A stretch of 64,000 nucleotides of DNA from Patescibacteria group bacterium (GCA_050953885.1 JBMNNJ010000001.1:399437-463436), one strand, 5' to 3'; positions 1,547 through 47,776 are shown, counted from the first letter of the stretch. Numbers and translations: made by a program. Notes: generated from the sequence alone by a model not told the origin.

Positions 1547-1559
1547 TGTTAAATTGATA

Positions 1560-1890
1560 AGCTGTTAAATTGTTGGGGATGGGATAGTTCGTAATGCGTA
1601 ATAAAGAAACGCAAAGTGCAAATATCAAAAATCAAAACCAAGCTCAAAAACCAAAACTATAAATTAAAACTCAAAACGCAAATGTCAAATGTCAAAACTA
1701 CATGTTAAATCTCAAATATTTTTAGAGCTTAATCCGCCAGCTGGCGGATTGAGTTGTAGTTTTGAGTTTTGCGATTTAACATTTGAGTTTATTTATTATT
1801 TTTGAACTTTTATTTAGGCTTTGATTTTTGATATTTGCGATTTGAGTTTTTTCATACTTAATACTTGATACAAAATACCAGATACTAACT
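1560..1890. repeat. Long AT-rich intergenic palindromic element (family E) with a central family A box. It is the representative of a family found in most intergenic spacers.
   Basis: Left arm ...aaaactcaaaacgcaaatgtcaaatgtcaaaactacatg... Centre aatCCGCCAGCTGGCGGatt (1734-1747). Right arm gagttgtagttttgagttttgcgatttaacatttgagttt... is the imperfect reverse complement. Related elements are at 3700-4040, 8790-9030, 11700-11950, 13000-13130, 15300-15480, 26250-26520, 28830-29070, 39130-39620, 41495-41630 and 43740-44110. Confidence 0.7.
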
Positions 1891-1894
1891 CTTA

Positions 1895-3655: not shown

Positions 3656-4043
3656 ATTTAATTTACCTAAAAAAACGATGCTATAATTTAGCGCGCACCT
3701 ATCACCTCTAATAAAAACAACCCTGCTTCATTATGTTTTTTGATTTTGATTGGTAATGGGTAATAAAAAAGCGCAAAATGCAAAGAGCCTCGCCGCCAGC
3801 GGGGCCCCGCTATGGCGGGATAAAACCTGAATCAAAATTCAAAATTCAAAAGTTAAAAGTTAAAATTACAAGTTAAAATTCAAAAGTAGAACAAAAAACT
3901 TTTAACTTGTAATTTTGATCCGCCAGCTGGCGGATTGACTTTTGCCTTTTGAATTATTTTTGCGCCAGTCATTCGCTTATTCGTGTCTATTCGTTTCCTA
4001 TTTGTTTTAATTCGTGTCTTTTAGCAACTTAATAATGATTTTC

Positions 4044-8772: not shown

Positions 8773-8872
8773 CGTTATTAAATTTTACTAAAATATACAA
8801 ATTAACACGGATGGGAAACAAGAAAATAACTTAAAATGCAAAAGTCAAAATTCAAAATTGCAAATACAATTC

Positions 8873-8964
8873 TGTAGGGGCGGACCCATGTGTCCGCCCA
8901 TCAAAGGGTCCGTGCTGCTTATTTAAAACCATTAATCGGGTCGACACATGGGTCGACCCCTACA
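8873..8964. repeat. Family C ~92-nt double-hairpin element. A second copy lies at 24641-24734 in inverted orientation.
   Basis: tgtaggggcggacccatgtgtccgccc...gggtcgacacatgggtcgacccctaca. The other copy is its near-exact reverse complement. Both are intergenic. Confidence 0.8.
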
Positions 8965-9033
8965 AATATTCCTTTGCGTTTTGCGATTTAACATTTGAGT
9001 TTATTTAATGAAACAATGCGGCAATGAAACAAT

Positions 9034-11690: not shown

Positions 11691-11952
11691 AAAATAAATA
11701 ACTAAGCTACTAAATTGCTAAAAACCGAGACACGATACAAGGAGACAAAGAAACACGCTAAGCGCTAAGGTCAAATCTCAAATCTCAAAACCATAAATTA
11801 AAACTCAAAACGCAAATGGCAAATGGCAAAACTACATGTCAAATCTTAAATCTTTCTTAGAGCTTAAAAGTGTTTTTTAGATTTGAGTTTTGAGTTGTAG
11901 TTTTGACATTTAACATTTGAATTTTGCGTTTATTTTTCGTGTCCATTCGTGT

Positions 11953-12990: not shown

Positions 12991-13135
12991 TATATAAAGT
13001 ATAACATCGGAGAAGAAAACTAAGAAATGATATAATTAAAATTGAAATGCTAAATTGATATCCAAAATAAAGACACAAAAAACCACGATAAAAAATTCAA
13101 AATACAAAATACTAAATACTCGCTTTCAACTATTC

Positions 13136-15287: not shown

Positions 15288-15480
15288 TAGAGCTACATTG
15301 CTAAATTGTTATACTGTCTGCGGGAGATTTTCCCCCAGGAAGGCTAAATTATTTCATTGTTAAATTGATACAGAATACAAGAAAACAAAAAAACACGAGA
15401 AAATAAATTAAAACTCAAATATCAATTTGCCAGCTGGCGGATTACATTTTGCGCTTCTTTATTACGCATAACAAACCTTT

Positions 15481-24432: not shown

Positions 24433-24936
24433 AAAAAAACACCTCTTGCCGAGGTGTCTTTTCTCAAACTAAAACAGTTCTTTTCCTCGGCAGGAAATTA
24501 AGCTTTCTTAAAAAAGCGCCTGCTGTCTTTGGCTTTTTTATTTTTACCACGAACGGGGATTAATGTCAACTACCAGATACATGAGACGAGAACAAAGCTC
24601 GTAATACCGTAATAGGTAATAAAATAGGTAATAAAAATTGGTAGGGGCCGAACCCATGTGTCGACCCGATTAATGGTTTTAAACGGACGAATTACAGGCC
24701 CTTTCACGGGCGGACACATGGGTTCGCCCCTACAATTCGTGTCTATTCGTTTCCCATTCGCATTAATTCGCGTATCCCAACATATAGTAATGTGTTTTTT
24801 TAATTTCTCAATTTCAGCGAGCGAAGCGAGCGAATTTCTTAATTTCTTTTTTTAATAACGTAACCGTTTAATAATTTAGAAATATTTTCCCTGTTGACAA
24901 TCTAATAAATATTTTGATATACTTTTAACTATAAAA

Positions 24937-26244: not shown

Positions 26245-26521
26245 TAAACAGAGATTGTTATATTGCTAAACTGTTAAATTGCTAAAGAAATTCAAAAATT
26301 AAAATTTAAAAGTCAAAAGTACAAGTCAAAATTCAAAAGTAGAGCGAAAACTTTTAACTTTTAACTTGTAATTTTGAATTTTGACTTTTGCATTTTGAAT
26401 TATTTTTACACCGACCATCGGCTCATTCGTGTCTATTAACAACATAGTAACTTCAGCCCTTCTCGCCCCAAAAATTCCCAAAATGTATTATAATAAGGTA
26501 TCTATTAATTTAACCTGAAAA

Positions 26522-27787: not shown

Positions 27788-27925
27788 ACCTCCCCTTTTC
27801 CTGCAAATCAAAGATTAATAAAGATGGCGAGGCTTATCAAGATAATATCTAGGAATATCCCGTAGTAATTTAACAATTTAGCAACTTAACAGTTTAACAA
27901 TCCTATTTTTACTTTTGACTTTAAG

Positions 27926-28804: not shown

Positions 28805-29072
28805 CTCCTCTTTGTTAAGATATTAAGATACTAAGATACAAAGAAACACACTAAAAAATTTAAAAGTCAGTAATCCGTAATTAAAGAAGTGTAAAGTGCA
28901 AATATCAAAGAGTAAAGCCTAAATCAAAGTTCAAAAATATTTTTAATCTTTAGTTTTTGATTTTGGTTTTGCGCTTTGATTTTTGATATTTGATTTATTT
29001 TTATATTATTCGCTCATTCGTGTTCATTCGTTTCCTATTCGTTTTAATTCGTGTTTCTTAACAATTTGTTCT

Positions 29073-30287: not shown

Positions 30288-30434
30288 GCCGTTTTATTTT
30301 ACCACCCTTTTTTAACAGAAAGAAGATGTTATAATTAAGCACGCAGGATACAACAGGATTAAATACAGGATTTAACAGGATTTTTATCCTGTTTAATCCC
30401 GTGTACTTTACCAACAATTTGACAATTTTTCCCC

Positions 30435-31715
30435 ATGTTCAATCCTTCCGCTTTAAAGATTATCCCCAAGGGAAAAACAGAAATTATTCTTCCTCGTTAC
30501 CAAGATTATTGTTTTGCCAATCTCCCCCTTACGATTCTTAAGCTGTTTGGCTGTCATCACTCCAACCCCACCCTCCCTCAAGACGCTTTTCCCTATCCTC
30601 AAAAATACCAACGCCTTATTCTTATTCTCCTTGATGCTTTTGGCTTCCAAAATTTTAAGAACCAGCAAAGTCAATTTCGCTTCCTTACCAACAAAGCAAT
30701 CGTTTCTCCTCTTACTTCCGTTTTCCCCAGCACCACTGCCGCCGCCCTTTCCACTCTTCATACCGGGGTTTTACCTAAAAAGCACGGTCTTATTGAATGG
30801 CATCTTTATCTACCGGAAGTTGGCCAAATAATCACCACTCTCCCTTTTTCTTTTTCGTCATCTTGCCAAGACGAGCTTTTAAAACAAGGTTTTTCGCCAA
30901 AGCTACTTTTAAACCAAAAAACTATTTTTCAAGCTCTTGCCCAACAAAAGGGCGTCCGTTCTTTTACTTTCGTCAAAAGAGATTATGCCCGTAGCGCCTA
31001 TAGCAAAATTTCTCAAAAAGGCGCCAAAACCATTGCTTATCAAGGCCTAACCGATCTTTTTGTCAATCTTAAAAATGTTTTCCAACATCAGGCAAAAAAA
31101 TCCTCACCCGCTTATTTTTATGCTTATATTGACTCTCTTGATTCTCTTGGCCACCAGTATGGCCCCCAAAGCGAGGCTTATCAAGAAGAAGTAAAAAGAA
31201 TCGCTTGGTCCTTAAAAAACATCTTTTTATCAAACCTCTCCCCTAAAGAAAAAGAAAAAACACTTCTTATCATCACCGCCGATCATGGCCAAATAGATAT
31301 TGACCCGCAAAAAAACTTTTCTCTCAACCACTTCTTAAAACTTAAAAAGAATCTAAAAACCAATCCCATGGGCGAAAAAATTCTTGCCACCGGTGGACCG
31401 AGAGATCTTTTTCTTCATCTTGAAAAAGAAAAAATCCCCGCCACTCTTTTTTACCTTCAAAAAAAACTAGGCAACACCGCTTTTGTTTATTCTTTAAAAA
31501 CTGCCGAAAAAATGGGTTTTTTCGGACCGGGAAAAACTTCCAAAAGATTTCGCCAACGCGCCGGCGACATTCTCATTCTCCCCCGCGGCAAAATCACTTT
31601 CTGGCTGGAAAAAGAAAAAAGAAAAAAGCCACCTAAATTAGGCCATCATGGAGGCTTATCTATCGAAGAAATGCTTATTCCCCTAATCGCCGCCAATCTT
31701 TCACATCTTTCTTAA
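30435..31715 (+). CDS. Alkaline-phosphatase-superfamily enzyme of the type I phosphodiesterase/nucleotide pyrophosphatase (NPP)-like group
   Basis: LILLDAFGFQNF resembles the NPP metal-site DGFR motif. FPSTTAAALSTLHTGVLPKKHG resembles FPSxTxPxHxxxxTGxxPxxHG. Also ITADHGQ and GHHGG. Confidence 0.55.
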   Translation: MFNPSALKIIPKGKTEIILPRYQDYCFANLPLTILKLFGCHHSNPTLPQDAFPYPQKYQRLILILLDAFGFQNFKNQQSQFRFLTNKAIVSPLTSVFPSTTAAALSTLHTGVLPKKHGLIEWHLYLPEVGQIITTLPFSFSSSCQDELLKQGFSPKLLLNQKTIFQALAQQKGVRSFTFVKRDYARSAYSKISQKGAKTIAYQGLTDLFVNLKNVFQHQAKKSSPAYFYAYIDSLDSLGHQYGPQSEAYQEEVKRIAWSLKNIFLSNLSPKEKEKTLLIITADHGQIDIDPQKNFSLNHFLKLKKNLKTNPMGEKILATGGPRDLFLHLEKEKIPATLFYLQKKLGNTAFVYSLKTAEKMGFFGPGKTSKRFRQRAGDILILPRGKITFWLEKEKRKKPPKLGHHGGLSIEEMLIPLIAANLSHLS

Positions 31716-33476
31716 AACCTCAAGACCTAAAATACCCAAACCTTCTTCCAAAATCTTTGCCGTTAAGGCGGTTAGGCCCAAACGAAGACTTTCTTTTTCC
31801 CTCTCTTCTTGTAAAATCTGGTGTTGGTTGTAAAAATGATTATAGTCTTGAGCTAATTGATACAAAAAGTCGGCGACAAGATTGGGAGAAAATTTTTGCG
31901 CCGCCTCGGAAATTACTTCATCCCAATGGCAAGAAAGTCTAACAATTGCTAACTCTTCTTGATTAAGCTGAATTTTCGGTAAATTCTCAAAACTTCTCCT
32001 CCTGCTTTTCTCAAGCACCGAAAAACAGCGCGCCGCTGTATACTGAAGATAAGGGCCAGAGTTTCCTTCTAAGGTAAGCATCTTTTCCCAGTTAAAAATA
32101 ATATCCGTCCGGGGGTTTTGCTTTAAATCATTATATTTAACCGCTCCTATCCCTACTGCCCGGGCCACTTTTTCTTGCTCTTTTGGGGAAAGCTTCTTGG
32201 CCACCCCCGCTTCTGCTGTTAATTTTCGCGCTTTCTTAATTGCTTCTTCCAAAACCGCTTCTAAATGAATTGTTTTGCCGCTCCGGGTGGAAAATTTGCC
32301 TTCTAAACCTAAAATCATCCCGTGCGCCACATGAACTAAGGCTTCCGGCGAGCAATAGCCCAAAAGCGAAGCAACCGAAAAAAGCTGTTGAAAATAGAAA
32401 GCTTGGTCCGCTCCCACCTCATAAATAATTAAATCGGGCCGCCAGCGCTCCTGCCGATATTTAATTGTCGCTAAATCGCGTAAAAGATAGGTGGTTGCCC
32501 CGTCTGATTTAACTAACATTGCCGGTGTTTCCTCGCCGGGCAGGAAAATCACTTTCGCTCCTCGGCTCTGGCAAAGTAATCCCTTTTCTTGGGCATCGGC
32601 AATTACCGCCGCCATTTTATCCTGATAAAAACTTTCCCCTAAAAAAACATCAAAAGAAATACCAAGCATTTTATAAACCCGGCTAAATTCTTTCATTGAT
32701 AAATCGACAATCTTTTGCCAAATTTCTCTTGCCTCCCGATCGCCCTCCTCAAGCCTCTTAAACCATTCTCTTGCCTCCCCTTTTAAACGAGGGTTTTTTT
32801 CTGCCTCCCGATGAAACTCAACATATAGATTTTCTAAATCTTCAATGGTTAGGTCTTCCAGCCCTTTATTATCGTCATTCTGACGAAAATCAGAATCCAG
32901 CTTTGGTTTGCCTTCCCTGCGACATTTTTTAGATAAACCTCGCCGTTTAACCTGATAAAGCAAAACCCCAAATTGCGTTCCCCAATCACCCAAATGATTA
33001 TCGCCAATCACTTTATAACCCAAAAAAGCATAAAGATTATAAAGCGCCTGGCCGATAATGGTGGAGCGCAAATGCCCCACGCCAAAGGGCTTGGCAATAT
33101 TAGGCGAAGAATAGTCAATAATGACCGTTTTCCCCTCCCCTGTTTTAGAAACCAATCTCTCCCTTGAGGAAATTATTTCCTCGCTTGCTTTCAAAAGAAA
33201 GTTTGGCTTTAAATAAAAATTGATAAATCCCGGGGGGGCCACTTTAATTTCCTCAACAAACGATAAAGAAGAAAGTAAAGAAATTTCTTCTTTAATTTTT
33301 TGAGCAACATGAAGTGGCGGTTGATTTAATTTTTTCCCCGCCAAAAGCGCCGCATTAGTAGCATAATCACCAAAAGAGGACAGCTTAGGCGTTTCTAAAG
33401 AAAAATTAACCGCGGGAACACCCAAAGAAGCCAGCGAATCTTTAATTGCTTTAGAGATTTCTTTCTTAAAATTCAT
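31701..33476 (-). CDS. argS: Arginyl-tRNA synthetase
   Basis: 591 aa with class I motifs PNIAKPFGVGHLRSTIIG (HIGH-like) and a KMSK-like GKFSTRSGK. The overall layout is ArgRS-like. Confidence 0.9.
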   Translation of the reverse strand: MNFKKEISKAIKDSLASLGVPAVNFSLETPKLSSFGDYATNAALLAGKKLNQPPLHVAQKIKEEISLLSSLSFVEEIKVAPPGFINFYLKPNFLLKASEEIISSRERLVSKTGEGKTVIIDYSSPNIAKPFGVGHLRSTIIGQALYNLYAFLGYKVIGDNHLGDWGTQFGVLLYQVKRRGLSKKCRREGKPKLDSDFRQNDDNKGLEDLTIEDLENLYVEFHREAEKNPRLKGEAREWFKRLEEGDREAREIWQKIVDLSMKEFSRVYKMLGISFDVFLGESFYQDKMAAVIADAQEKGLLCQSRGAKVIFLPGEETPAMLVKSDGATTYLLRDLATIKYRQERWRPDLIIYEVGADQAFYFQQLFSVASLLGYCSPEALVHVAHGMILGLEGKFSTRSGKTIHLEAVLEEAIKKARKLTAEAGVAKKLSPKEQEKVARAVGIGAVKYNDLKQNPRTDIIFNWEKMLTLEGNSGPYLQYTAARCFSVLEKSRRRSFENLPKIQLNQEELAIVRLSCHWDEVISEAAQKFSPNLVADFLYQLAQDYNHFYNQHQILQEEREKESLRLGLTALTAKILEEGLGILGLEVLRKM

Positions 33477-34450: not shown

Positions 34451-34581
34451 CTTGACAAATTCGCCAGCTGGCGGACAGGATTGTTACTTTGGCAGTAAGA
34501 AAGATCCTGAATCAAGTTCAGGATGACGCTAAATTAAATTTAAAATAACATCATAAATTATATCTCAGCCACTTTTTATAC

Positions 34582-36447: not shown

Positions 36448-39126
36448 TTAAATCACAAAATTAATTAGCCTTCCCGGCAAGAAAACTACTTTTTTAATCT
36501 TTTGACCTGATAAATATTTCTTAATCTTTTCTTCTCTCTTTACGGCCAAAATAACCGCATCTTTAGCATTCGCTTTATCGCTTTCTATATCAATTTTTCC
36601 CCTTGTCTTCCCGTTAATTTGCACAATAATTGTCGTCATTTTTTCTTCTAACTTCCTCGGGTCATAAGTTGGCCACTCTTGCTGATGAACCGAAAAAGGA
36701 TTCCCAAGAACATTGGTCCAAAGCTCCTCGGCTAAATAAGGAGCAAAGGGGGCAATAAGCTTAACCATTGTCTCCATTTCCTTTTTAGTCAAAACCAGTT
36801 CCTCTTCTTCTATTTTATTTAAAGCCTCCATCAACGCCGCCACCGCGGTATTATATTTAAAATGTTTTATATCCTCGCTTACTTTTTTCGTGAGGCGATG
36901 AAACAATGGTCTTAACTTTTTTCCTTCCTCCTTTGCCACCTTCATGTCCTCCCGAATTTTCTTCTCAAAACGGCGCAAAAACCTCACCGTTCCCTGAAAA
37001 GCGTTCTCGTTCCAAATTGTCGTTCCCTCATACGGCCCCATAAACATCAAATAAAGCCTTAAGGCGTCAACACCATAATTGCCCCAAACTTCGTCCGGGT
37101 TAATCACGTTACCACGCGACTTGCTCATCTTTTGACCATCGGCCCCCAAAACCATCCCGTGAGAAACTCGCCGATAATACGGCTCGGGATAGCGGCGAGG
37201 GAGAAACCCCAAATCATATAAAAACTGATAAATAAAACGTGAATAAAGAAGATGAAGGGTATTATGCTCATCGCCGCCGAAATAAATATCCACCGGCAGC
37301 CAATAGCTAAGAATATCTTTATTATCCATAAAAACATTTTGAGATTTTTGCTTATCGGTAAGTTTATCCGCAAAACAATAAGCAAGGTAGTACCAATCAG
37401 AACCCGCCCAATTAGGCATGGTGTCCGTTTCCCGTCGGGCAGCCTGCCCACAAACCGGGCAGGAAATTTCCCGCCAACCCGGCACACTGGCCAGAGGAGA
37501 TTCCCCGGTACCAGTAGGCTGGTATTTTTCCACCTTTGGCAACTCCACCGGCAAATCTTCTTCTGGCACCGGAAACCACCCCGCTAGTTCCCTTAAGTTA
37601 AAATTTTGAAACTTTTGACTTTTGTCCGCCAGTTGGCGGATTGAATTTTGACTTTTTTTACTGTCCCACCATGTTATCCCCTTCTTCGCGCAACTTGGAC
37701 AATAAATCATCGGAATCGGCTCCCCCCAATAATGCTGACGGGAGAAAATCCAATCCCGAAGATGATAGCTCACTGCTTTCTCGCCAATTTTCTTTTTCTC
37801 CAACCAAGCGATGGTTTCTTTAATTGCCTCTTTGGGACTAAGGCCATTAAGAAAACCAGAGTTGATCATTTTCCCCTTCTCAACTTGTGTATAAGCCCCT
37901 TTATCAAAATCCCAGTTTTCTCTTGGTTCAACCACAGGAATGATGGGTAAACCAAATTTTTTAGCAAATTGCCAATCTCTTTCGTCGTGAGCCGGCACCC
38001 CCATAATTGCCCCACTACCATAACTTTCCAAAACAAAATCAGAAACCCAAACAGGGATTTTCTTCCCCGTGGCCGGATTAACCGCGTAAAGGCCGGTAAA
38101 AACACCTGTTTTTTCCTTGGCCAAATCGGTTCTCTCCAAATCCGATTTTTTTCTTGCTCCCTCAACGTACTCGTCAATCTTTTGCAATTCTGAATTTTTT
38201 CCGCCAGCTGGCGGATTGAGTTTTGAATTTAGGAGCGCAGCGACAAGCGGATGTTCCGGCGCCAGAACAATAAAAGTCGCTCCCCAAAGAGTATCCGGCC
38301 TTGTCGTAAACACCTCAATTTCTTTAATGTCATCCTGAACTACCCCCTTCCCGTCATCCTGAACTTGATTCAGGATCGATCCTGAAATAAATTCAGAATG
38401 ACTAGCTATTGAGAATTTAATCTTTGCCCCTTCCGACTTGCCGATCCAATTAATCTGCGCCGCCTTAACTTTTTCGATAAAATCAACTTTGTTAAGACCT
38501 TCCAGAAGACGCTCGGCATAATCGGTAATTTTGACAATCCATTGCTCTAATTTTCTTTGGCTCACCGTGGCGCCACAACGCTCGCAACGGCCATTAACTA
38601 CCTCCTCATTAGCCAAACCAATTTTACAAGAAGGGCACCAGTTCACCGGCATGGCTTTTTTATAAGCCAAACCATTCTCGAAAAGCTTAATAAAAATCCA
38701 CTGGGTCCAGCGGTAATAAGCCGGGTCGGTAGTATTAATTTCCCGGCTCCAGTCAAAAGAAAAAGCCATTTTCTTCATCTGCCGCCGAAAATTAGCGGTA
38801 TTACGTTCGGTTACTTTTTGGGGATGAATACCGGTTTTAATGGCAAAGTTTTCCGTCGGCAAGCCAAAGGCGTCCCAGCCCATAGGAAATAAGACATTTT
38901 TTCCTTCCATTCGCCGCTGACGGGCGTAAACATCAGCGCCGGTAAAAGTAAAAGCATGACCAATATGAAGCCCCTCGCCCGAAGGATAAGGAAATTCCAC
39001 TAAAATGTACTCTTTTCCCCGTTTTTTATCCAAATCAATTGCCCGATATAAACCCGCTTTTTCCCACCGCTTCTGCCATTTTTCCTCGTCAATGGTTGTC
39101 TTTTCCCCTTTTGACTTCATTGTCAA
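36448..39126 (-). CDS. leuS: Leucyl-tRNA synthetase carrying three in-frame insertions of dispersed repeat elements
   Basis: 892 aa. PYPSGEGLHIGHAF (HIGH) and KMSKSRGN (KMSKS). The peptides NSIRQLADKSQKFQNFNL, NPPAGGKNSELQ and ILNQVQDDGKGVVQDD are translations of family A and family B repeat copies at 37626-37639, 38201-38214 and 38329-38402. Confidence 0.9.
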   Translation of the reverse strand: MTMKSKGEKTTIDEEKWQKRWEKAGLYRAIDLDKKRGKEYILVEFPYPSGEGLHIGHAFTFTGADVYARQRRMEGKNVLFPMGWDAFGLPTENFAIKTGIHPQKVTERNTANFRRQMKKMAFSFDWSREINTTDPAYYRWTQWIFIKLFENGLAYKKAMPVNWCPSCKIGLANEEVVNGRCERCGATVSQRKLEQWIVKITDYAERLLEGLNKVDFIEKVKAAQINWIGKSEGAKIKFSIASHSEFISGSILNQVQDDGKGVVQDDIKEIEVFTTRPDTLWGATFIVLAPEHPLVAALLNSKLNPPAGGKNSELQKIDEYVEGARKKSDLERTDLAKEKTGVFTGLYAVNPATGKKIPVWVSDFVLESYGSGAIMGVPAHDERDWQFAKKFGLPIIPVVEPRENWDFDKGAYTQVEKGKMINSGFLNGLSPKEAIKETIAWLEKKKIGEKAVSYHLRDWIFSRQHYWGEPIPMIYCPSCAKKGITWWDSKKSQNSIRQLADKSQKFQNFNLRELAGWFPVPEEDLPVELPKVEKYQPTGTGESPLASVPGWREISCPVCGQAARRETDTMPNWAGSDWYYLAYCFADKLTDKQKSQNVFMDNKDILSYWLPVDIYFGGDEHNTLHLLYSRFIYQFLYDLGFLPRRYPEPYYRRVSHGMVLGADGQKMSKSRGNVINPDEVWGNYGVDALRLYLMFMGPYEGTTIWNENAFQGTVRFLRRFEKKIREDMKVAKEEGKKLRPLFHRLTKKVSEDIKHFKYNTAVAALMEALNKIEEEELVLTKKEMETMVKLIAPFAPYLAEELWTNVLGNPFSVHQQEWPTYDPRKLEEKMTTIIVQINGKTRGKIDIESDKANAKDAVILAVKREEKIKKYLSGQKIKKVVFLPGRLINFVI
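38201..38214. repeat. Family A dispersed palindrome CCGCCAGCTGGCGG (contains a PvuII site). This copy is in-frame inside leuS.
   Basis: Other copies or variants: 1734-1747, 3920-3933, 15429-15440, 34462-34474, 37626-37639, 39319-39332, 39464-39476, 39533-39546, 43833-43846 and 45076-45087. Usually flanked by aatc / gatt. Confidence 0.85.
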
Positions 39127-39623
39127 AATATTCTATCATAATATCTAAGAGAAGAGGTAGATTACAAGAGCGCGCTCGTAAAAATATATTGATGGAGTTA
39201 AAAATGTCTGCATTTTAAATCTCAAAACGCAAATAGCAAATCTACATGGTAAATGTTAAAACTTTTTAAAGCTTAAAGTTGTTTTTTTTAGATTTGAGTT
39301 TTGAGTTGTAGTTTTGATCCGTCAACTGGCGGATTGAGTTGTCGGTTTGATACGCCTGGCGGGCAGAATCATCCCTGTAGCTGTCATCCTGACAAAAGTC
39401 AGAATCTAACTGATTCTGAATCAAGTTCAGAATGACGCTAATCATGGCCGTCATTCTGACAAATCCGCCAGCTGGCGAACAAAAGTTAAAAGTTTTTTCG
39501 TCTTACTTTTGAATTTTGACTTGCAATTTTGATCCGCCAGCTGGCGGATTGACTTTTGACTTTTGCATTATTCTTATGTCAATCATTCATTCGTGTCTAT
39601 TCGTTTTCCATTCGTGTTAATTC

Positions 39624-40367
39624 GTGTATTTTAACAAACAATCTAACTTTATGCCCTTTCACCAAACCGCTCTTACCATCTTAATCCTTTGTTTTTCTAC
39701 CGCCTTTTCTTTCCTTTGGGTTAATTCTCCTCTTGCCGCTTATAATCTCCAGCTAATTGCCTTGTTATTAATCTTTACCATAATTTTTTTCAGAAAAAAG
39801 AGAATAGCTACCTTTTGGAAAACTTTAATTGGCTTAACCGCCTTTAATATCGCCGTCCTTTTGCTTATCAGCCAAACTGGCAATCTTAACTCCCCCCTCT
39901 TTTTTCTAATCTATTTTTTCCTCTTGGGTTTAGGTTTTTTAACCACCCCGTCCGCTACTCTTATTATTACCCTAAGCCTCGTCTTTTTCTTCCTCCCCTT
40001 CTCCTCCATCCAAAGCGATTGGCTAAAACTTGGTTCCCTTTTTCTAATTACTCCCCTTTGCTTAATTTTGGGTTGGCAACGCCAAGAAATGGAAGAACAG
40101 GAAAAAATAAATTTAGCCCTAAAGGAAAAAAAGAAGGCTGCTGACCAGGCGCTTAGCCTTCAGGAGACCACCAGCCTCCTTTGGCTAAGCCTAACCTTAA
40201 AAAATAATTTAATCGAGATAACCGAGCTTTTAAACGAAGCCCTAAGCGACGTGGCCCATCTTCCCCTCCATCAAAAAGAAATTCTTCAAAAAGCCTACCG
40301 AAAAAGCAAGCGCCTGCTCAAAGAAAGTGATGCCGTTAAGAGCCTAATTGATCAACAAACCGACTAA
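39624..40367 (+). CDS. Polytopic membrane protein with a C-terminal coiled-coil. No assignable family.
   Basis: Hydropathy shows about 5 TM helices, then a charged helical tail. The gene is preceded by the cattcgtgtctattcg leader motif. Confidence 0.5.
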   Translation: MYFNKQSNFMPFHQTALTILILCFSTAFSFLWVNSPLAAYNLQLIALLLIFTIIFFRKKRIATFWKTLIGLTAFNIAVLLLISQTGNLNSPLFFLIYFFLLGLGFLTTPSATLIITLSLVFFFLPFSSIQSDWLKLGSLFLITPLCLILGWQRQEMEEQEKINLALKEKKKAADQALSLQETTSLLWLSLTLKNNLIEITELLNEALSDVAHLPLHQKEILQKAYRKSKRLLKESDAVKSLIDQQTD

Positions 40368-41491: not shown

Positions 41492-41632
41492 GAAAAGACA
41501 CGAAGGGGAAAAGAACAAACACGAATCTGGAGGGACGCATCACGATGCGCCCTCATATCGGTATGAATCCGCGCCGGTTATTCGTTCATTCGTGTCTATT
41601 CGCTTTTAATTCGCGTTAATTCGCGTTTTACC

Positions 41633-42385
41633 ATGAACCAATATAGACATCTTTTCTTTCTCCTGGCTATTCTTAACTTCTCACTTTTAATCTTTAATTC
41701 GAGCGAAGCAAACGCCCAAACAATGCGTTCCGACAGCTACGAAATTCATATGGGGAATTTTAATATGACCGCCGGCAAAAAGTCTTCCGAAAACTACCAA
41801 GTTGCCGACACCGTTGGCCAAACTGCTTCCGGCCTTTACGAATCCGAAGGTTATCAGGTTGGCGCCGGCTTTTGGTATCTTAAAAGAAAAGTCCCCTTTA
41901 CATTCACCATTTCCGAGATTAACCTTAATTTTGGTTTACTTACCCCCCAAGTTCCCAAGGTGCTTACCAACACCCTCACTGTTTCTGCCGGCGGCGCCGG
42001 CGGTTATCAGGTAAGTGCTTTTGAAAACCATCCCTTAATGTCGGCGGCGGAGAATTATATCCCCGACACCTTAGGCGATAACGGCCAAGCCTCGGAAATC
42101 ACCGCCTCCTCGTGGGTCCAAAATACCACTTATGGGTTTGGCTTTAAAATGGAAGGTGATGATATCCCCGCTGATTTTACCAACCCTGCTTGTCTTCCCA
42201 ATTGTTTTCGCCAGTTTGCCGACCCGACCGCCAGCCCCCCCGAAGAACCGCAAATTGTGATGAGCTCGGTTGATCTGGCCCGCCACGCCGAAGCCACCGC
42301 TTCTTATAAAATTAACATCTCCGGTGACCAGCCGGCCGGCGTTTACCAAAACCAAATTATTTTTATCGCCATTCCTTTATATTGA
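41633..42385 (+). CDS. Secreted hypothetical protein
   Basis: Signal peptide MNQYRHLFFLLAILNFSLLIFNSSEANAQ. No recognisable family. Confidence 0.5.
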   Translation: MNQYRHLFFLLAILNFSLLIFNSSEANAQTMRSDSYEIHMGNFNMTAGKKSSENYQVADTVGQTASGLYESEGYQVGAGFWYLKRKVPFTFTISEINLNFGLLTPQVPKVLTNTLTVSAGGAGGYQVSAFENHPLMSAAENYIPDTLGDNGQASEITASSWVQNTTYGFGFKMEGDDIPADFTNPACLPNCFRQFADPTASPPEEPQIVMSSVDLARHAEATASYKINISGDQPAGVYQNQIIFIAIPLY

Positions 42386-43735: not shown

Positions 43736-43867
43736 TAAAAACAAAACACAATATAAGGATAAAAAGAAACATGCTAAGCGCTAAGGTCAAATCTCAAATC
43801 TCAAATATCAAAACTCAAAACTACAACTCAATCCGCCGGCTGGCGGACAAGAATAACGATAATCGCA

Positions 43868-43965
43868 CCTGTCATCCTGACGAAAGTCAGGATCTAATTG
43901 ATTCTGAATCAAGTTCAGAATGACACTAATCGTGGTCGTCATTCCTGAATTAAATTCAGGATGAC
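43868..43965. repeat. Family B hairpin repeats (GTCATCCTGAAYTTGATTCAGGATGAC and the TTCTGAATCAAGTTCAGAATGAC variant). This is a cluster of two or three units.
   Basis: Other copies: 34504-34527 (between the comEC halves), 38329-38402 (inside leuS), 39376-39460 and 45038-45170. Confidence 0.8.
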
Positions 43966-44115
43966 GCCATTCGTTCATTCGCGTTCATTCGCTTTTAATT
44001 CGCACATCCCAGCAATATAGCAATGTGTTTCCTAATTTCTTAATTTCAGCCCCGCCAGGGCGGGGCGAATTTCTTAATTTCTTTTTTAGCAATTCAACAA
44101 TATCGCAATTTAACC

Positions 44116-45126
44116 ATGAAACAACATTACCTTTTCCTTGCTTTTCTGGTTTTTCTTTCCCTCATCTTTCCTCATCCCACCCTTGCCTCAACCACCGTTC
44201 TCTGGCAGAAAATAAGCGAGGAAGGACCAAAAGAAACAATCGGATCTTCAAGCCAGGAAGTGGCTCTTTCTGCGCTGGTAGGCCAAGGGATTTTTACTAT
44301 TGAAGGCTACTCTTCGCCCGGGGCGACTATTTTTCTCACCAGCTCTCAAGGCAACTTAAGCCCACAAACCGTTAAGGCAGATAAAAACGGCTATTTTATT
44401 TTTAAAAATGTTCTCCTGCCGGTAAACCCCGGCGAGCTTTGGTTTCAAGCCCGCGACCAAAAGGGAAATTTTACTACTCCCTTGGCTATTGCCCAGCCGC
44501 CAAGGGAAGTAGAAAAAATTAAGGATGTTTTCCTTCCTCCCACCTTTTCCCAAACCAAAGGGCAAATAATTACCGGTGAAAATGCTTTTTTATGGGGATA
44601 TAGCCTGCCCGACGCTACCGCCGAAATTTATTTTTTCAAAACCCCCACAAAGAAATGGTGGCAAGCTTTTATCGGCCGACCCGCCCTTGCTTTTGAACCT
44701 CTTAAAATAGAAATTAAAACCGACCAAAACGGCTATTTCGAAGTAAATCTTCCTAATACTGCTCGGGGGCACTACCAAATTTTTGCCTCAAGTCAAAAAG
44801 AAGAAAATCCTTCTCCTAAAAGTAATACCCTCTCATTTCGGATTTTGGGAAAATGCGAAACCTTTTGGTTTTTTCTTAAGGCTTTATTCACACGATTAGC
44901 CTTGTTCCTAAAAAAGATTGTCGCTGATTTACTTTTTTGGATTACGATCGAGCTGATTATCTTAATTTATTTAATCTGGAAAATAAGACAAAAAAAAGAA
45001 TTGCCGCTAACCGTGTCACCACAACAAAACAAGGCCATCATTCCTGAATTAAATTCAGGACAGGCTCTGACGAATCCGCCAGCTGGCAGACAGGATCTAA
45101 CTGATTCTGAATCAAGTTCAGAATGA
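44116..45126 (+). CDS. Secreted protein with a C-terminal TM helix. Its last ~40 residues are encoded by family A and family B repeat elements.
   Basis: Signal peptide MKQHYLFLAFLVFLSLIFPHPTLAS. C-terminal TM helix (LLFWITIELIILIYLIW). The tail ...NPPAGRQDLTDSESSSE is translated from repeat copies at 45038-45125. Confidence 0.5.
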   Translation: MKQHYLFLAFLVFLSLIFPHPTLASTTVLWQKISEEGPKETIGSSSQEVALSALVGQGIFTIEGYSSPGATIFLTSSQGNLSPQTVKADKNGYFIFKNVLLPVNPGELWFQARDQKGNFTTPLAIAQPPREVEKIKDVFLPPTFSQTKGQIITGENAFLWGYSLPDATAEIYFFKTPTKKWWQAFIGRPALAFEPLKIEIKTDQNGYFEVNLPNTARGHYQIFASSQKEENPSPKSNTLSFRILGKCETFWFFLKALFTRLALFLKKIVADLLFWITIELIILIYLIWKIRQKKELPLTVSPQQNKAIIPELNSGQALTNPPAGRQDLTDSESSSE

Positions 45127-45240
45127 CGCCCGAGTTATTTTAACAAAATTCAGAATGACGATTGCGCTATCCCTAAATTTATCAGAAATAACGCCCACCA
45201 CAGAATGGCAACACCGAGGGTTACCACCAAAAGAGAAAGC

Positions 45241-45708: not shown

Positions 45709-45762
45709 ACCACGGGACACGAAACAAGGAAAAACAAGGAGGATTGCTACATTGTTACGTTT

Positions 45763-45836
45763 GTGGTGGGCGTATTGCCATACGCCCGCCAACAAGAAAC
45801 AGACAACCAAGACGGGTTTATGCAATAAACCCCTAC
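45763..45836 (+). repeat. Family D REP-like 73-nt palindromic element. A second copy lies at 42455-42527, inside the RAYT remnant.
   Basis: g(t/g)ggggcgtattgccatacgcccgccaaca(g/a)gaaacag(g/a)ca(g/a)ccaa(t/g)acgggtttatgcaataaacccctac. Contains the perfect hairpin GGGCGTATtgccATACGCCC. Confidence 0.8.
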
Positions 45837-46129
45837 TTCTCATTTGCGTATTTTTAACAACATTACCTCTAACTACAGGCTTTTTCACGAAAAAATTATC
45901 CGTCTTCTTTCTTTCCCTAAGAATTCCCAATCTCTTCGTTTTTAATCCTTTAAAAACCTCCTTTTAAAAACGGGCAAATAAATGTTTTGGCTGATAAAAT
46001 GATAAAAAAAGAACTGTCGTTTTTTTTATCAATCTCACCTCATCACTGATAAAAAACCGCCCTTTGGCCCAAAAACTCTCTTTTGCTATAATATTTTTGT
46101 GAAAAAAACCAAAATAACAACCAAAAGGC

Positions 46130-46340
46130 GATAGTCTTATAATAAATTAGATTTTTTGGGGTAATTTTTCCCTTTTTTAAAAAAATTTTTTCTGAATTTT
46201 TTTTGGCAATTTTTCAAAAATTTTTCTGAAATTTTTTTATTTTCTTAAAACTTTTTATTATTTTTTTTCAATTTTTAATTTTTAATAAAAAAATTTAATA
46301 AATTTTAAAAAGTTTTAATAAATTTAAAAAAATCTTTCTT
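46130..46340. promoter_or_regulatory. Extremely AT-rich, phased A/T-tract low-complexity region upstream of the giant-protein locus. It may be a curved-DNA upstream region or the boundary of an acquired segment.
   Basis: Runs of aaaaatttttt / ttttttaaaa repeat for ~200 nt. No ORF. Sequence character changes sharply between the flanks. Confidence 0.4.
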
Positions 46341-46720
46341 AAGAACCCTACCCTCCTTCTTCTTTCCACTTCTTAATATTAAGATGTCTTAATTTACCTT
46401 TTGATATGCGGCTAAAATTCGCATGAAATTCATGTGAAAAAATACCCGCAAACTTCTGCGGTAATTACTAAAGCTATTTCTCCATTTTTAGGGCCTATCT
46501 AAAACCATCAAAATATATCAACTTTAAAAAATAGGGGACTTGACAAACATTTTATAATAGTGTACGCTTTTTATAATTCTGATAATTTATGATAATTTAA
46601 GGCTAAAATTTTATTACCGCAAAAATCATGAACAATCAAAAGGCATCAAACCAAATAGTAGACTTTCTTACTGTTTTTTTGATTTTTTTAATGAGTTTTA
46701 TTTGGCTGTTTATTTAACAT

Positions 46721-47203
46721 ATGCCCCAAACCCTGCTCTCCTCTTTCCGGCTTTATCTTAAAGCCCAAGGGAAAAAGGAAAACACCATCAGGAATTATCT
46801 TCAGGACATTGATCACTTTTTCTCTTGGCTTTCCTCCCAAATTAAAGATTCTTCACTGCAAGCGCTTCTTAACGACCCTAACAAAATAGCTCAAAACATA
46901 ACGGTTAAAAATTTAACTGTCTATCAGCGATTTTTGGAAAAAAATGAAGTTTCCCCTACCACTATCAACCGCCGCCTTTCCTCTCTTCGCCAATTGACAA
47001 AGTTTTTCCTTTCTCAAGGTTGGTTAAAAGAAGACCCAATAAAAAAATTAGCCAATATCTCCATTGAAAAAGAAACCGATAAAACTTCGCAAATTCTGGA
47101 AAAGTTTGCCAAAGCGCTTGAAGAAGAAGGGAAAAGCAAAACCACCATTAGAAATTATCTTTCTGACGTGAAGGGGTTTTTGGAATGGCACGAAAAAGAT
47201 TAA
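46721..47203 (+). CDS. Small protein made of tandem phage-integrase-N-terminal-like (SAM-like/core-binding) modules, with no catalytic domain
   Basis: Three ~35-aa modules of the pattern FxxYLxxxGxSxxTIxxYLxxxxxFxxW: SFRLYLKAQGKKENTIRNYLQDIDHFFSWL, VYQRFLEKNEVSPTTINRRLSSLRQLTKFF and LEKFAKALEEEGKSKTTIRNYLSDVKGFLEW. Confidence 0.5.
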   Translation: MPQTLLSSFRLYLKAQGKKENTIRNYLQDIDHFFSWLSSQIKDSSLQALLNDPNKIAQNITVKNLTVYQRFLEKNEVSPTTINRRLSSLRQLTKFFLSQGWLKEDPIKKLANISIEKETDKTSQILEKFAKALEEEGKSKTTIRNYLSDVKGFLEWHEKD

Positions 47204-47215
47204 AAAGTTAAAAAA

Positions 47216-47776
47216 ATGACCAACAGAATTATTTTGCCTCACGGCAATTATCGTCAGCTTAAATCGTTCCAAACTACAACAATTATTTACGATTTCACGA
47301 TGGCTTTTTGTAATCAATACCGGTCCCTCCTGACTTACAAGAACTACGAGCAAATGATCGGTGGTGCCAGATCGGGTAAGCAAAATATCGCCGAAGGCAG
47401 TCAGGTTTCTGGCACTTCTAAAAAAACAGAGATAAAACTTACCAGCGTTGCCCGTGGGTCACTTGAAGAATTGCTTCAAGATTGCCTTGATTTTCTTCGC
47501 CAAAACAATCTTGTTTTGTGGGATAAAAACGATCCCCGGGCTATTACCATCCGCAAGATTGCTTATAAGCCTGATCGGTCTTATGAGTCCTACAAGTCCT
47601 ATCTTAAAGACCCGGAAAGCGCCGTCAACTGCCTAATTTGCTTAATTCATCAGGCTAATTTTCTTCTTGACCGTCAGCTTGAAGCTTTAGAAAAAGATTT
47701 TTTAGAAAATGGCGGCTTCACTGAAAGGCTTTATCGGGAAAGAAGCGAAGCAAGAAAAAAGCAAAAATATGACTAA
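47216..47776 (+). CDS. Four-helix-bundle protein (23S rRNA intervening-sequence protein / Avd-like family), long form
   Basis: Family motifs NIAEGS...S and ARGSLEEL in the expected spacing. The stop overlaps the start of the giant gene (ATGACTAA). Confidence 0.55.
   Translation: MTNRIILPHGNYRQLKSFQTTTIIYDFTMAFCNQYRSLLTYKNYEQMIGGARSGKQNIAEGSQVSGTSKKTEIKLTSVARGSLEELLQDCLDFLRQNNLVLWDKNDPRAITIRKIAYKPDRSYESYKSYLKDPESAVNCLICLIHQANFLLDRQLEALEKDFLENGGFTERLYRERSEARKKQKYD

What the first reader, a model, noticed from the sequence alone, without database searches (positions are those of the whole stretch)
1560..1890. A family of long AT-rich intergenic palindromic elements fills most intergenic spacers
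At least 11 spacers contain 150-300-nt imperfect palindromes built from caaaa/ttttg-rich arms. A typical left arm is gaaacacg...aaatctcaaaa...aaaactcaaaacgcaaatg.caaat. The right arm is atttgagttttgagttgtagtttt...cattcgtgtctattcgtttcctattcgttttaattcgtgt. The centre is often a family A CCGCCAGCTGGCGG box or ttagagcttaa. Segments are shared almost exactly between distant copies, for example acacgctaagcgctaaggtcaaatctcaaatctcaaa at both 11750 and 43770. They lie between convergent, divergent and tandem genes alike. They could be bidirectional terminators, MITEs, or chromosome-organising sequences. Their density is striking for such a compact genome.
Basis: seen in the sequence. Interest (0 to 1): 0.6.

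Follow-up and report, generated by a model that had tools for sequence, protein, structure and literature searches.

The report
Nested palindromic repeat mosaics in CPR spacers
Most gaps between operons in this tiny candidate-phyla-radiation (Shapirobacteria-like) genome, and even loops of essential tRNA-synthetase genes, are filled with nested hairpin-forming repeats that differ between near-identical strains, so they look like mobile, reshuffling selfish DNA rather than purpose-built terminators.

Summary
About 9 long AT-rich palindromes sit in 8 spacers, and 5-6 further spacers carry related modules. DNA-fold z-scores run from -3.4 to -8. Twenty-three spacer pairs align at 40 bits or more, against a maximum of 32 bits in shuffles.

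The elements are not one discrete family. They are nested mosaics of five parts:
- arms made of 7-nt tandem units (TCAAAAN and its complement TTTTGAN);
- outer 10-nt ATTCGTG arrays;
- a 14-18-bp CCGCCAGCTGGCGG box;
- GTAG-tagged REP doublets;
- CGTC-tagged REP hairpins.

Strains 93-99% identical in their genes have the interiors of three spacers replaced by other modules. Box and REP segments also lie in frame in LeuRS (three sites) and ArgRS, where close strains or an ortholog lack them.

Two modules cross phyla. The box occurs in many CPR classes and in Bacteroidota, often at hairpin tips or in frame as N-P-P-A-G-G. The ATTCGTG module matches 18/18 in a 66%-GC Bryobacteraceae contig.

Best reading: REP/BIME/RPE-like non-autonomous repeats spread by insertion at hairpins, ectopic conversion and slippage. 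The mobilising enzyme is unknown. A primary terminator role is not supported. This is a new variant of a known kind, and I found no description of it in CPR.

The parts
1601..1855 (.). 255-nt AT-rich palindrome (the finding). The A-type 7-nt-unit arm is 1601-1721 and the T-type arm 1750-1855. The centre holds TTAGAGCTTAA (1722-1732) and the box (1734-1747). An outer module GTAATGCGTAATAAAG... lies at 1591-1622.
   Evidence: (I2)
3793..4030 (.). Composite element. A box variant split by a GC-rich insert lies at about 3793-3818. The AT-rich palindrome has arms at about 3832-3887 and 3896-3957, with the box (3920-3933) interrupting the right arm. A 10-nt ATTCGTG array lies at 3966-4030. The interior 3773-3970 is replaced by other modules in strains L002/L003.
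8815..9010 (.). AT-rich arms flanking a GTAG-tagged REP doublet (8874-8899 on +, 8938-8963 on -). In strain L003 the centre 8849-8982 is instead a box-(3 CGTC hairpins)-box cassette.
   Evidence: (I10)
11734..11952 (.). Left-end module (11734-11770), AT-rich palindrome (11771-11935, centre TTAGAGCTTAA at 11857-11867) and a short ATTCGTG array (11935-11952).
13038..13119 (+). One-armed A-rich short-period arrays with no palindromic partner (fold z +1.7).
15392..15472 (.). Short element: an A-type arm, a box variant (15427-15440) and the inverted outer module (15441-15472).
24638..24776 (.). GTAG-tagged REP doublet (about 24638-24664 and 24708-24733) followed by an ATTCGTG array (24727-24776).
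   Evidence: (I11, I19)
26283..26408 (.). 126-nt AT-rich palindrome of 7-nt units in the divergent spacer between MreB and a PEGA-domain gene.
   Evidence: (I18)
28880..29062 (.). AT-rich palindrome (28899-28985) plus an ATTCGTG array (29005-29062).
   Evidence: (I22)
32874..32897 (+). CGTC-type REP hairpin inside the ArgRS gene. It lies within a 19-aa in-frame insertion that the L124 ortholog lacks.
34459..34528 (.). Box variant (34461-34474) plus a CGTC-tagged REP (34503-34528).
37600..37660 (-). In-frame box (37626-39) with 7-nt units inside LeuRS. A 33-nt segment (KSQNSIRQLAD) is absent from strains L121/L122.
38175..38410 (-). In-frame box (38201-38214, read as NPPAGG) and CGTC REPs (38320-38410, including 38352-38377) inside LeuRS. 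Strain L122 carries an extra 27-nt insert at the box centre and a 24-nt duplication.
39205..39630 (.). Compound spacer with five parts: an AT palindrome (39205-39316, centre 39266-39276); a box variant (39319-39332); a CGTC REP cluster (39383-39460) ending in a box (39465-39478); the remnant of a second AT palindrome with a box at 39534-39547; and an ATTCGTG array (39578-39630). In strains L121/L122 the stretch 39142-39504 is a simple 90-110-nt AT palindrome without a box.
41492..41630 (.). CACGAA-type left words, a GC hairpin, then an ATTCGTG array (41571-41630) that ends 3 nt before the start codon at 41633.
   Evidence: (D5, D6)
43750..44006 (.). Left-end module and A-type arm (43750-43832), box variant (43833-43846), CGTC REP cluster (43871-43961) and ATTCG array (43966-44006).
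   Evidence: (I1, D12)
45037..45128 (.). CGTC REPs and a box variant (45076-45089) that form the C-terminal end of ORF 44116-45126.

Best explanation
The spacers hold nested mosaics of small, non-autonomous, hairpin-forming repeats, comparable to REP/BIME clusters and to Rickettsia palindromic elements.

The substrate is AT-rich arrays of 7-nt (and outer 8- and 10-nt) tandem units arranged as inverted arms. Smaller cassettes are embedded in them: the 16-18-bp box, CGTC-tagged hairpins and GTAG-tagged REP doublets.

Shown here:
- The elements are real repeats and strong palindromes.
- Their interiors differ between near-identical strains while the flanks stay the same.
- Unit numbers in the arrays vary between strains.
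- Box and REP segments are present or absent in frame in LeuRS and ArgRS.
- The box sits at the apex of unrelated hairpins in many genomes.

Inferred:
- Spread and turnover occur by (i) insertion or templated repair at single-stranded hairpin tips, (ii) ectopic gene conversion between spacers using the short-period arrays as homology, and (iii) replication slippage.
- GTAG REPs are presumably moved by a RAYT-type tyrosine transposase encoded elsewhere. The enzyme for the box, the CGTC hairpins and the arrays is unknown.
- Any effect on transcription (termination, mRNA-end protection) is secondary.
For: - Palindromy and family relation.
- Modular sharing: (families D1-D15, I1-I25).
- Strain polymorphism with conserved flanks: window 3773-3970 and 8849-8982 are replaced in L002/L003. 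Window 39142-39504 is replaced by a simple palindrome in L121/L122, with array unit-number differences between L121 and L122.
- Intragenic in-frame copies: the LeuRS 33-nt box segment is absent in the 93-95% identical L121/L122 and is flanked by an 11-nt direct repeat. L122 has a 27-nt insert exactly at the box centre. The 65%-identical L124 has the 7-nt array without the box at one site and a whole array plus box at another. ArgRS carries a 19-aa insertion over a CGTC REP.
- Module anatomy fits the published GTAG and CGTC REP definitions (PMC3733652).
- Apex placement of the box: in the loops of CGTC hairpins (L036, L054, L031, L124), in terminator-like hairpins of Bacteroidota (L015, L035, L096), in 5S-like helix IV copies (L057) and in a tRNA-copy T-loop (L009). 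17 of 120 hits extend the palindrome by 4 bp or more, against 0.4% expected.
- Box frequency: more than 117 loci against about 9 expected by my arithmetic (596 Gb / 4^18).
- In CPR genomes 22 of 35 box hits lie in long ORFs, 16 of them in the PPAGG frame.
- The same kinds of modules fill spacers of a 65%-identical species and of the contig beyond the window.
Against: - No transposase or HUH nuclease is encoded in the window or its flanks (precomputed Pfam).
- No consistent target-site duplication or sharp element ends were found.
- The direction of each polymorphism (gain versus repeat-mediated loss) cannot be fixed from the strains available.
- Exact conservation of 18-26-nt modules between species whose proteins are only 65% identical, and between phyla, could also reflect selection for a function.
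- Strain divergence is mosaic, so the lack of substitutions in the elements says nothing either way.
Confidence: 0.6

Rival explanations
1. They are selected bidirectional intrinsic terminators or insulators at operon boundaries. The long hairpin, or the GC-rich box hairpin with its A-rich 5' side and T-rich 3' side, would stop transcription from either direction.
For: - All window palindromes have an A-rich first half and a T-rich second half.
- The box with its flanks scores as terminator-like at 1726-1755 and 3915-3938.
- In tandem spacers the hairpins start 18-108 nt after the upstream stop codon.
- In Bacteroidota the box sits in hairpins of the form AAAA-stem-TTTT.
Against: - None is found in the 5 convergent junctions, where genes overlap or are separated by tRNAs.
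- They are present in divergent spacers (26283-26408; 39205-39630).
- They are present in frame inside LeuRS and ArgRS, including a ~170-nt array plus box in L124 LeuRS. That is incompatible with efficient termination.
- Terminator-like sites are not enriched overall (31 against 24 +/- 5.6).
- The opposite T-to-A polarity occurs in other genomes (L050, L167).
- Interiors are swapped freely between strains.
Confidence: 0.15
2. The short-period words (TTTTGAC-type 7-mers, ATTCGTG 10-mers, CAATTTAA 8-mers) are arrays of protein-binding or promoter/5'-UTR sites. They would be phased on the helix and used for expression control or nucleoid organisation. The palindromic layout would serve divergent or successive promoters.
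For: - The 10-11-nt period of the ATTCGTG words places them on one helical face.
- The arrays often abut start codons: 41571-41630 ends just before the ATG at 41633, and similar cases occur upstream of EF-Tu in L151 and in L141, L149 and L145.
- The word sequence is conserved across phyla, 18/18 in Bryobacteraceae.
- Elements occur only in spacers that contain a gene start.
Against: - In 34 oriented cases the array faces a gene start about as often as a gene end (about 10 against 14, crude ORF calls).
- Unit sequences differ between related species.
- Arrays and boxes occur inside ORFs.
- Interiors are replaced between strains.
- No candidate binding protein has been identified.
Confidence: 0.15
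3. The apparent family is only AT-rich low-complexity sequence that looks alike by chance.
For: The arms are low-complexity (7-nt units, 25-35% GC), and short two-copy matches are expected in such sequence.
Against: - 31 inter-spacer hits reach 40 bits or more, against none in 20 dinucleotide shuffles.
- 58-nt/90% and 76-nt/92% matches occur between distant spacers.
- GC-rich modules are also shared.
- Fold z-scores reach -8.
Confidence: 0.01
4. The box is a DNA-uptake or Chi-like recognition sequence that accumulates through recombination. The window encodes ComEC and DprA, and GCTGGCGG is one base away from E. coli Chi.
For: - The box is strongly over-represented (11 in 48 kb).
- It occurs both in genes and in spacers.
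- Competence genes lie in the window.
- The resemblance to Chi is from my own knowledge and was not tested.
Against: - Presence or absence is by 20-33-nt insertions, not by point mutation.
- The same 18-mer is shared by CPR and Bacteroidota, which is unexpected for a lineage-specific receptor.
- It is preferentially placed at hairpin tips.
Confidence: 0.05

Closest known systems
REP / BIME clusters (GTAG-tagged REPs and REPIN doublets mobilised by RAYT transposases)
   Same: - Short imperfect palindromes with a 5' GTAG tag occur as inverted doublets (8874-8963; 24638-24733).
- Repeats in alternating orientation are clustered into mosaics in intergenic spacers.
- Some copies are intragenic.
   Different: - Most of the element mass here is AT-rich 7-nt tandem arrays forming 90-255-nt palindromes, which REP/BIME lack.
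- No RAYT gene was seen.
- The host is a ~0.6-Mb CPR genome.
- The elements are found in tandem and divergent spacers, not convergent ones. REPs are reported mainly between unidirectional and convergent ORFs (PMC3733652).
CGTC-tagged REPs, including Rickettsia palindromic elements RPE-4/-6 (Di Nocera 2013, PMC3733652)
   Same: - The anatomy is CGTC/TGTC tag, 8-bp stem starting with AT, 4-5-nt loop and short tail (39383-39406; 39412-39437; 43871-43961).
- No associated transposase is known.
- In-frame copies lie inside essential genes (LeuRS, ArgRS).
   Different: - CPR is not among the five phyla listed for CGTC repeats in that paper.
- Here the hairpin loops host further insertions (the box, GC-rich inserts).
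- The hairpins are embedded in AT-rich arrays.
Pneumococcal BOX elements (boxA-boxB(n)-boxC) and Neisseria Correia elements (from my own knowledge)
   Same: They are modular, hairpin-forming, non-autonomous intergenic repeats. An internal tandem module varies in copy number.
   Different: BOX and Correia elements have defined ends, and Correia elements have TA duplications. The CPR elements have fuzzy ends, 7-nt units and nested foreign cassettes.
Cyanobacterial STRR heptanucleotide tandem repeats (from my own knowledge; the literature search returned only papers that use them for fingerprinting)
   Same: Intergenic tandem arrays of 7-nt units of unknown function.
   Different: The unit sequences and the phylum differ. 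Here the arrays are paired as inverted arms and carry embedded REP-like cassettes.

Membership tests
GTAG-tagged REP / REPIN | 20-40-nt imperfect palindrome with an unpaired 5' GTAG tag, a 5-13-bp stem and a 2-20-nt loop | tested here: met
   GTAG-GGGCGGAC-CCATGT-GTCCGCCC at 8874-8899, with inverted partners at 8938-8963 and 24708-24733. Definition taken from PMC3733652. This applies to that module only.
GTAG-tagged REP / REPIN | A cognate RAYT (Y1 transposase) gene in the genome | not testable with these tools
   Only the window and about 10 kb of flank are available. None of the precomputed Pfam hits listed there is a transposase family.
GTAG-tagged REP / REPIN | The AT-rich caaaa/ttttg palindromes themselves fit the REP definition | tested here: not met
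   They have no tag, are 90-255 nt long, have 25-35% GC and are built of 7-nt tandem units.
CGTC-tagged REP / RPE | CGTC (or TGTC) tag, 8-9-bp stem beginning with AT, 4-5-nt loop and 3-nt tail | tested here: met
   TGTC-ATCCTGAC-AAAA-GTCAGAAT-CTA at 39381-39409. On the minus strand of 39412-39437: CGTC-ATTCTGAA-CTTGA-TTCAGAAT-C. Criteria.
CGTC-tagged REP / RPE | In-frame copies inside protein-coding genes | tested here: met
   LeuRS 38320-38410 and ArgRS 32874-32897. These segments are absent from more distant homologs or orthologs.
MITE | Terminal inverted repeats with sharp, reproducible ends | tested here: not met
   The ends fade into degenerate 8- and 10-nt arrays. Length and module content differ in every copy.
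MITE | Target-site duplication of fixed length | tested here: inconclusive
   The 33-nt LeuRS segment is flanked by an 11-nt direct repeat that is part of the array. The box in spacer 39534 is flanked by TTGA. No general rule emerges.
MITE | Presence/absence polymorphism between strains | tested here: met
   The direction of change (gain or loss) is not resolved.
Intrinsic bidirectional terminator | GC-rich hairpin followed by a T-run on both strands, placed after gene ends | tested here: inconclusive
   The pattern is met on the + strand at 1726-1755 and 3915-3938. Against this, the elements are absent from convergent junctions, present in divergent spacers and present inside ORFs.
STRR (cyanobacterial heptamer repeats) | Tandem 7-nt units in intergenic DNA | tested here: met
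   Lag-7 identity is 0.56-0.73 in 8 arms. TRF reports period 7.
STRR (cyanobacterial heptamer repeats) | Canonical unit sequences (CCCCAGT and similar) and a heterocystous cyanobacterial host | tested here: not met
   The units are TCAAAAN-type. The host is Shapirobacteria-like CPR.

The most novel reading that the evidence does not exclude
A still-unidentified, cross-phylum DNA process builds these nested palindromes. The candidates are an enzyme acting on single-stranded hairpin tips or a templated repair pathway.

In this reading, tiny palindromic cassettes are inserted at the apex of any DNA hairpin and into ORFs. The cassettes include the stop-free 16-18-bp box that reads N-P-P-A-G-G in proteins, and the CGTC hairpins. 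The hairpins hit include REPs, terminators, 5S helix IV and tRNA T-loops.

The periodic-word arrays would be its recognition or by-product sequences. An example is the ATTCGTG 10-mers, which are identical in a 40%-GC CPR genome and a 66%-GC Bryobacteraceae genome. CPR genomes, thought to be streamlined, would then be heavily shaped by it, down to the sequences of their aminoacyl-tRNA synthetases.
Probability: 0.2. Interest if true: 0.8.

Novelty: new variant of a known kind. Interest (0 to 1): 0.6.

Why it matters
- CPR/Patescibacteria genomes are regarded as minimal and streamlined. Here about 7.5% of a 48-kb stretch, roughly half of its non-coding DNA, and loops of LeuRS and ArgRS consist of fast-turning-over hairpin repeats.
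- The repeats mark where strains differ. They probably break metagenome assemblies, create spurious ORFs and extend real ones.
- They offer strain-typing markers and a natural record of insertion at DNA hairpins.
- Two modules are shared with distant phyla (Bacteroidota, Acidobacteriota). That points either to a widespread mobilising activity without a known enzyme, already an open question for CGTC REPs, or to a conserved function of unknown nature.
- In the held library my keyword and sequence-string searches found no description of these elements in CPR.

Tried and rejected
- Rfam: neither the gathering nor the permissive search gave any family for the elements, only tRNAs, the L10 leader and meaningless miRNA-hairpin hits.
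- Sequence conservation as a sign of selection: the elements at 1547-1894, 41492-41632 and 43736-44115 have 0 substitutions against strains that differ by about 1.4% overall. The divergence is clustered in recombination tracts, so this is uninformative.
- Strand bias of the ATTCGTG module (7 of 8 on +): this is only the T-rich half of palindromes whose A-rich half carries the complement. It is not a replication-strand bias.
- Association of ATTCGTG arrays with downstream start codons: starts and gene ends are about equally frequent.
- A-to-T polarity as proof of terminators: both polarities exist in other genomes.
- Phage origin: only 1 and 4 viral contigs carry the box or the CGTC hairpin.
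- ATTCGTG triple arrays in the 822 kb of labelled box loci: none found.
- Literature: string searches for the box and the decamer words, and searches for CPR repeats, returned nothing relevant.
- A simple local inverted-repeat aligner missed the interrupted palindromes at 3832-3957 and 39480-39572.

Full report
**What is at the coordinates.** Window 1547-1894 is the spacer between two minus-strand genes, thyX-like (stop at 1895) and SHMT (start at 1546). It contains a 255-nt imperfect palindrome at 1601-1855, with 190 of 230 aligned positions complementary. As single-stranded DNA, 1580-1870 folds into one long hairpin of -56.5 kcal/mol. Shuffles give -26.4 +/- 3.7, so z is -8.1. As RNA, z is -9.3. 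The tip carries TTAGAGCTTAA (1722-1732) and, next to it, CCGCCAGCTGGCGG (1734-1747). Both arms are built of 7-nt units, TCAAAAN on the left and its complement on the right. Lag-7 self-identity is 0.58-0.61.

**Is it more than chance, and is it a family?** Ten to twelve spacers of the first 48 kb fold with z <= -3. Seventeen coding controls scatter around 0. All-against-all blastn of 22 spacers gives 31 hits of 40 bits or more in 23 spacer pairs. The best are 76 nt at 92%, 82 nt at 91% and 114 nt at 85%. Twenty dinucleotide-preserving shuffles never exceeded 32 bits. The box gives 11 matches against 0.09 expected, and ATTCGTGTCTATTCGTTT gives 8 against 0.05. "Only low-complexity sequence" is therefore refuted.

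- Two-armed caaaa/ttttg palindromes number about nine in eight spacers: 1601-1855, about 3832-3957, 8815-9010, 11771-11935, 15392-15472, 26283-26408, 28899-28985, 39205-39316 and 39480-39572.
- Other spacers carry related modules only (13038-13119, 24638-24776, 34459-34528, 41492-41630, 43750-44006, 45037-45128).
- None of the five convergent junctions has one.
- The box frequently interrupts a T-type array instead of forming the centre (family D2).

**Anatomy: nested modules.** Reading the spacers together with the repeat families gives a recurring layout. From outside to inside it runs as follows:
- 8-nt arrays (CAATTTAA/CAATTTAG) lie next to start codons.
- 10-nt arrays follow. On the right they read ATTCGTGTCT ATTCGTTTCCT ATTCGTTTTA ATTCGTGT, with degenerate complements (GAAACACG) on the left. 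Lag-10 identity is 0.44-0.52.
- 7-nt-unit arms come next.
- A variable centre completes the element.

Three kinds of small GC-richer hairpins occupy the centres or interrupt the arms:
- The box.
- GTAG-GGGCGGAC-CCATGT-GTCCGCCC units in inverted pairs (8874-8963; 24638-24733).
- Hairpins such as TGTC-ATCCTGAC-AAAA-GTCAGAAT and CGTC-ATTCTGAA-CTTGA-TTCAGAAT, found as clusters of three (39383-39460; 43871-43961).

The second and third kinds match, feature by feature, the GTAG-tagged and CGTC-tagged REP super-families of Di Nocera et al. 2013 (PMC3733652). That paper notes that CGTC REPs include Rickettsia RPE-4/-6, have intragenic copies and lack a known transposase.

**Organism.** LeuRS homologs identify the source as a Candidatus Shapirobacteria-like member of the Microgenomates/Patescibacteria. 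The window is identical to JGI contig Ga0591961_000493 wherever they overlap.

**Turnover between strains.** Contigs from other samples carry the same genes at 93-99% identity.
- In L002/L003, window 3773-3970 is replaced by about 200 nt of different modules. These include another 7-9-nt-unit palindrome (TTGAAAC/CTCAAGC words), a box and CGTC hairpins. The flanks align.
- At 8849-8982 the GTAG REP doublet of the window is replaced in L003 by a box-(three CGTC hairpins)-box cassette.
- In L121/L122 the 363 nt at 39142-39504 are replaced by a simple 90-110-nt AT-rich palindrome without a box. L121 and L122 also differ from each other by whole 7-nt units and an 8-nt duplication, as expected from slippage.
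- The spacer at 1547-1894 is identical in all three strains. It lies inside a 2.3-kb block with no differences at all, because divergence is clustered in recombination tracts. Its identity therefore says nothing about constraint.

**Copies inside essential genes.** The 890-aa LeuRS gene (36448-39126, minus strand) contains the box with 7-nt units at 37600-37660 and at 38175-38235, and CGTC hairpins at 38320-38410. All are in frame.
- Alignment with 13 homologs shows that each segment lies in a length-variable loop that shorter homologs lack.
- At nucleotide level, L121/L122 lack a 33-nt segment (KSQNSIRQLAD) that is flanked in the window by the 11-nt direct repeat AAAAGTCAAAA.
- L122 has 27 extra GC-rich bases exactly at the box centre (CCGCCA^GCTGGCGG) and a 24-nt duplication.
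- The 65%-identical L124 has the 7-nt array without the box at one site. At another site it has an entire array-plus-box element of about 170 nt in frame.
- ArgRS (31701-33476) has a 19-aa insertion over a CGTC hairpin (32874-32897) that the L124 ortholog lacks.
- ORF 44116-45126 ends inside a REP/box cluster.

A sequence that must be transcribed through in essential genes is unlikely to be an efficient terminator. The 11-nt flanking repeat fits recombination or slippage between arrays better than cut-and-paste with a fixed duplication. The direction of each change (gain or repeat-mediated loss) cannot be fixed from the strains at hand.

**Distribution beyond this genome: the box.** My arithmetic gives about 9 expected from 596 Gb. 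The hits comprise about 35 from many CPR classes, about 46 from Bacteroidota and 5 from Cloacimonadota. Some coding hits in high-GC genomes are probably chance.
- In 17 of 120 matches the palindrome continues for 4-13 bp into flanks that differ from genome to genome, against 0.4% expected.
- The box sits in the loops of CGTC-type hairpins (L036, L054, L031; also L124).
- It sits in AAAA-stem-TTTT hairpins of Bacteroidota (L015, L035, L096).
- It sits at the helix IV apex of two 5S-like copies next to the true 5S gene (L057).
- It sits in the T-loop of a degenerate tRNA copy (L009).
- In other CPR genomes it is again embedded in 7-nt arrays with other unit sequences, some palindromic and some direct.
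- In CPR genomes 22 of 35 hits lie in long ORFs, 16 of them in the frame N/D-P-P-A-G-G. These include LeuRS of two further lineages at one site (IYC-DPPAGG-C).
- The 18-mer has no stop codon in any frame.

**Distribution beyond this genome: the decamer module.** A metagenome scan for ATTCGTGTCTATTCGTTT gave 30 loci with GC from 35 to 66%. Most show more ATTCG units beside the match, and many show CACGAAT arrays as the opposite arm of a 70-180-nt palindrome, sometimes with a further palindrome nested inside. One of them, L141 at 66% GC, is Bryobacteraceae (Acidobacteriota) by a 94%-identical HisD. The related species L124, and the contig beyond the window, again have nearly every spacer over 100 nt filled with such modules, partly with other unit sequences.

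**Explanation.** The evidence fits mosaics of non-autonomous hairpin repeats of the REP/BIME/RPE kind. They sit in a substrate of short-period tandem arrays that has no described counterpart.
- Shown: repeat status, palindromy, modular sharing, strain-level replacement and indels, unit-number variation, in-frame intragenic copies, and apex placement of the box.
- Inferred: cassettes enter at single-stranded hairpin tips, by an unidentified nuclease or transposase or by break repair. The arrays provide homology for ectopic conversion that swaps centres between spacers. Slippage changes unit numbers. A RAYT encoded elsewhere moves the GTAG REPs.
- No transposase is encoded in the window or its flanks.

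**Rivals.**
- Selected bidirectional terminators are weakened by the positions of the elements and by the intragenic copies.
- Phased protein-binding or promoter arrays remain possible for the 10-nt words, given their helical period, their frequent position next to start codons and their cross-phylum identity. Against this, the arrays face gene ends as often as gene starts.
- An uptake- or Chi-like signal for the box is unlikely, because presence and absence arise by insertion.

**Novelty.** REP-like mosaics and in-frame palindromic elements are known kinds. Four aspects were not found in the literature I could search:
- the AT-rich 7-nt-unit palindromic substrate;
- the systematic nesting;
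- the box as a stop-free mini-insertion in CPR proteins;
- the occurrence in a minimal CPR genome.

Rfam has no matching family. I rate the finding a new variant of a known kind, with interest 0.6.

Noticed in passing
L005, L007, L012, L049, L073, L076, L080, L113, L116 and others: In CPR genomes the 18-bp box lies inside long ORFs in 22 of 35 exact hits. Sixteen of these read N/D-P-P-A-G-G, including LeuRS of two other lineages at one site (IYC-DPPAGG-C). By my reading of the flanking peptides, they also include CysRS-like, PheS-like and TatD-like proteins. The 18-mer is stop-free in all frames.
   Followed up: partly
L057 5287-5304 and 5428-5445; L009 1098-1115: The box replaces the helix IV apex in two 5S-like copies downstream of the genuine 5S rRNA of a Chitinophagales MAG. 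It also sits in the T-loop of a degenerate tRNA copy next to an intact paralog. In both cases the insertion is at a hairpin tip of a structured-RNA gene copy.
   Followed up: partly
L141 about 3740-3830 (Bryobacteraceae, 66% GC); also L147, L150, L153, L159: High-GC soil-type contigs carry AT-richer palindromes built of CACGAAT...ATTCGTG 10-11-nt words. They match the window's outer module 18/18. Some have a second word-palindrome nested inside (L153). No Rfam family or paper was found for them.
   Followed up: partly
window 1547-1575, 26256-26286, 27867-27901, 44085-44115; L124 2733-3292 and 4070-4686: 8-nt tandem arrays (CAATTTAA/CAATTTAG/CAATGTAA, up to about 12 units in L124) lie directly upstream of start codons in the orientation of the gene. 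They may be unstructured CAA-rich leaders.
   Followed up: no
window 8848/8983 and about 44116-44164: The borders of strain-divergent (recombination) tracts fall at or next to repeat-bearing spacers in two of about three cases. The elements may act as recombination break points.
   Followed up: partly
window about 47709-57000: A 1584-bp unit repeated about 5 times in tandem (528 aa each) lies inside a giant plus-strand ORF. Its GC is about 50%, against 40% for the rest of the window.
   Followed up: no
window 45709-47776: A 1-kb spacer at 28% GC has its own T/A-rich palindromes (46232-46331). It is followed by a small ORF with a Phage_int_SAM domain (46721-47203) and a 23S_rRNA_IVP-family ORF (47216-47776). 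From my own knowledge that family includes the DGR accessory protein Avd. The same gene pair occurs in the related species (L125).
   Followed up: no
window 62159-62230: Perfect heptamer tandem arrays TCACAGT (x3.9) and CAGATCA (x4.1) lie in the GC-richer right part of the window. They are a different unit type from the AT-rich arms.
   Followed up: no
window 30344-30410; L001 16700-16790: A separate palindrome family is built of CAGGATTTAA/ACAGGATT words (z -3.2 at 30288-30434). It also occurs in a spacer beyond the window.
   Followed up: no
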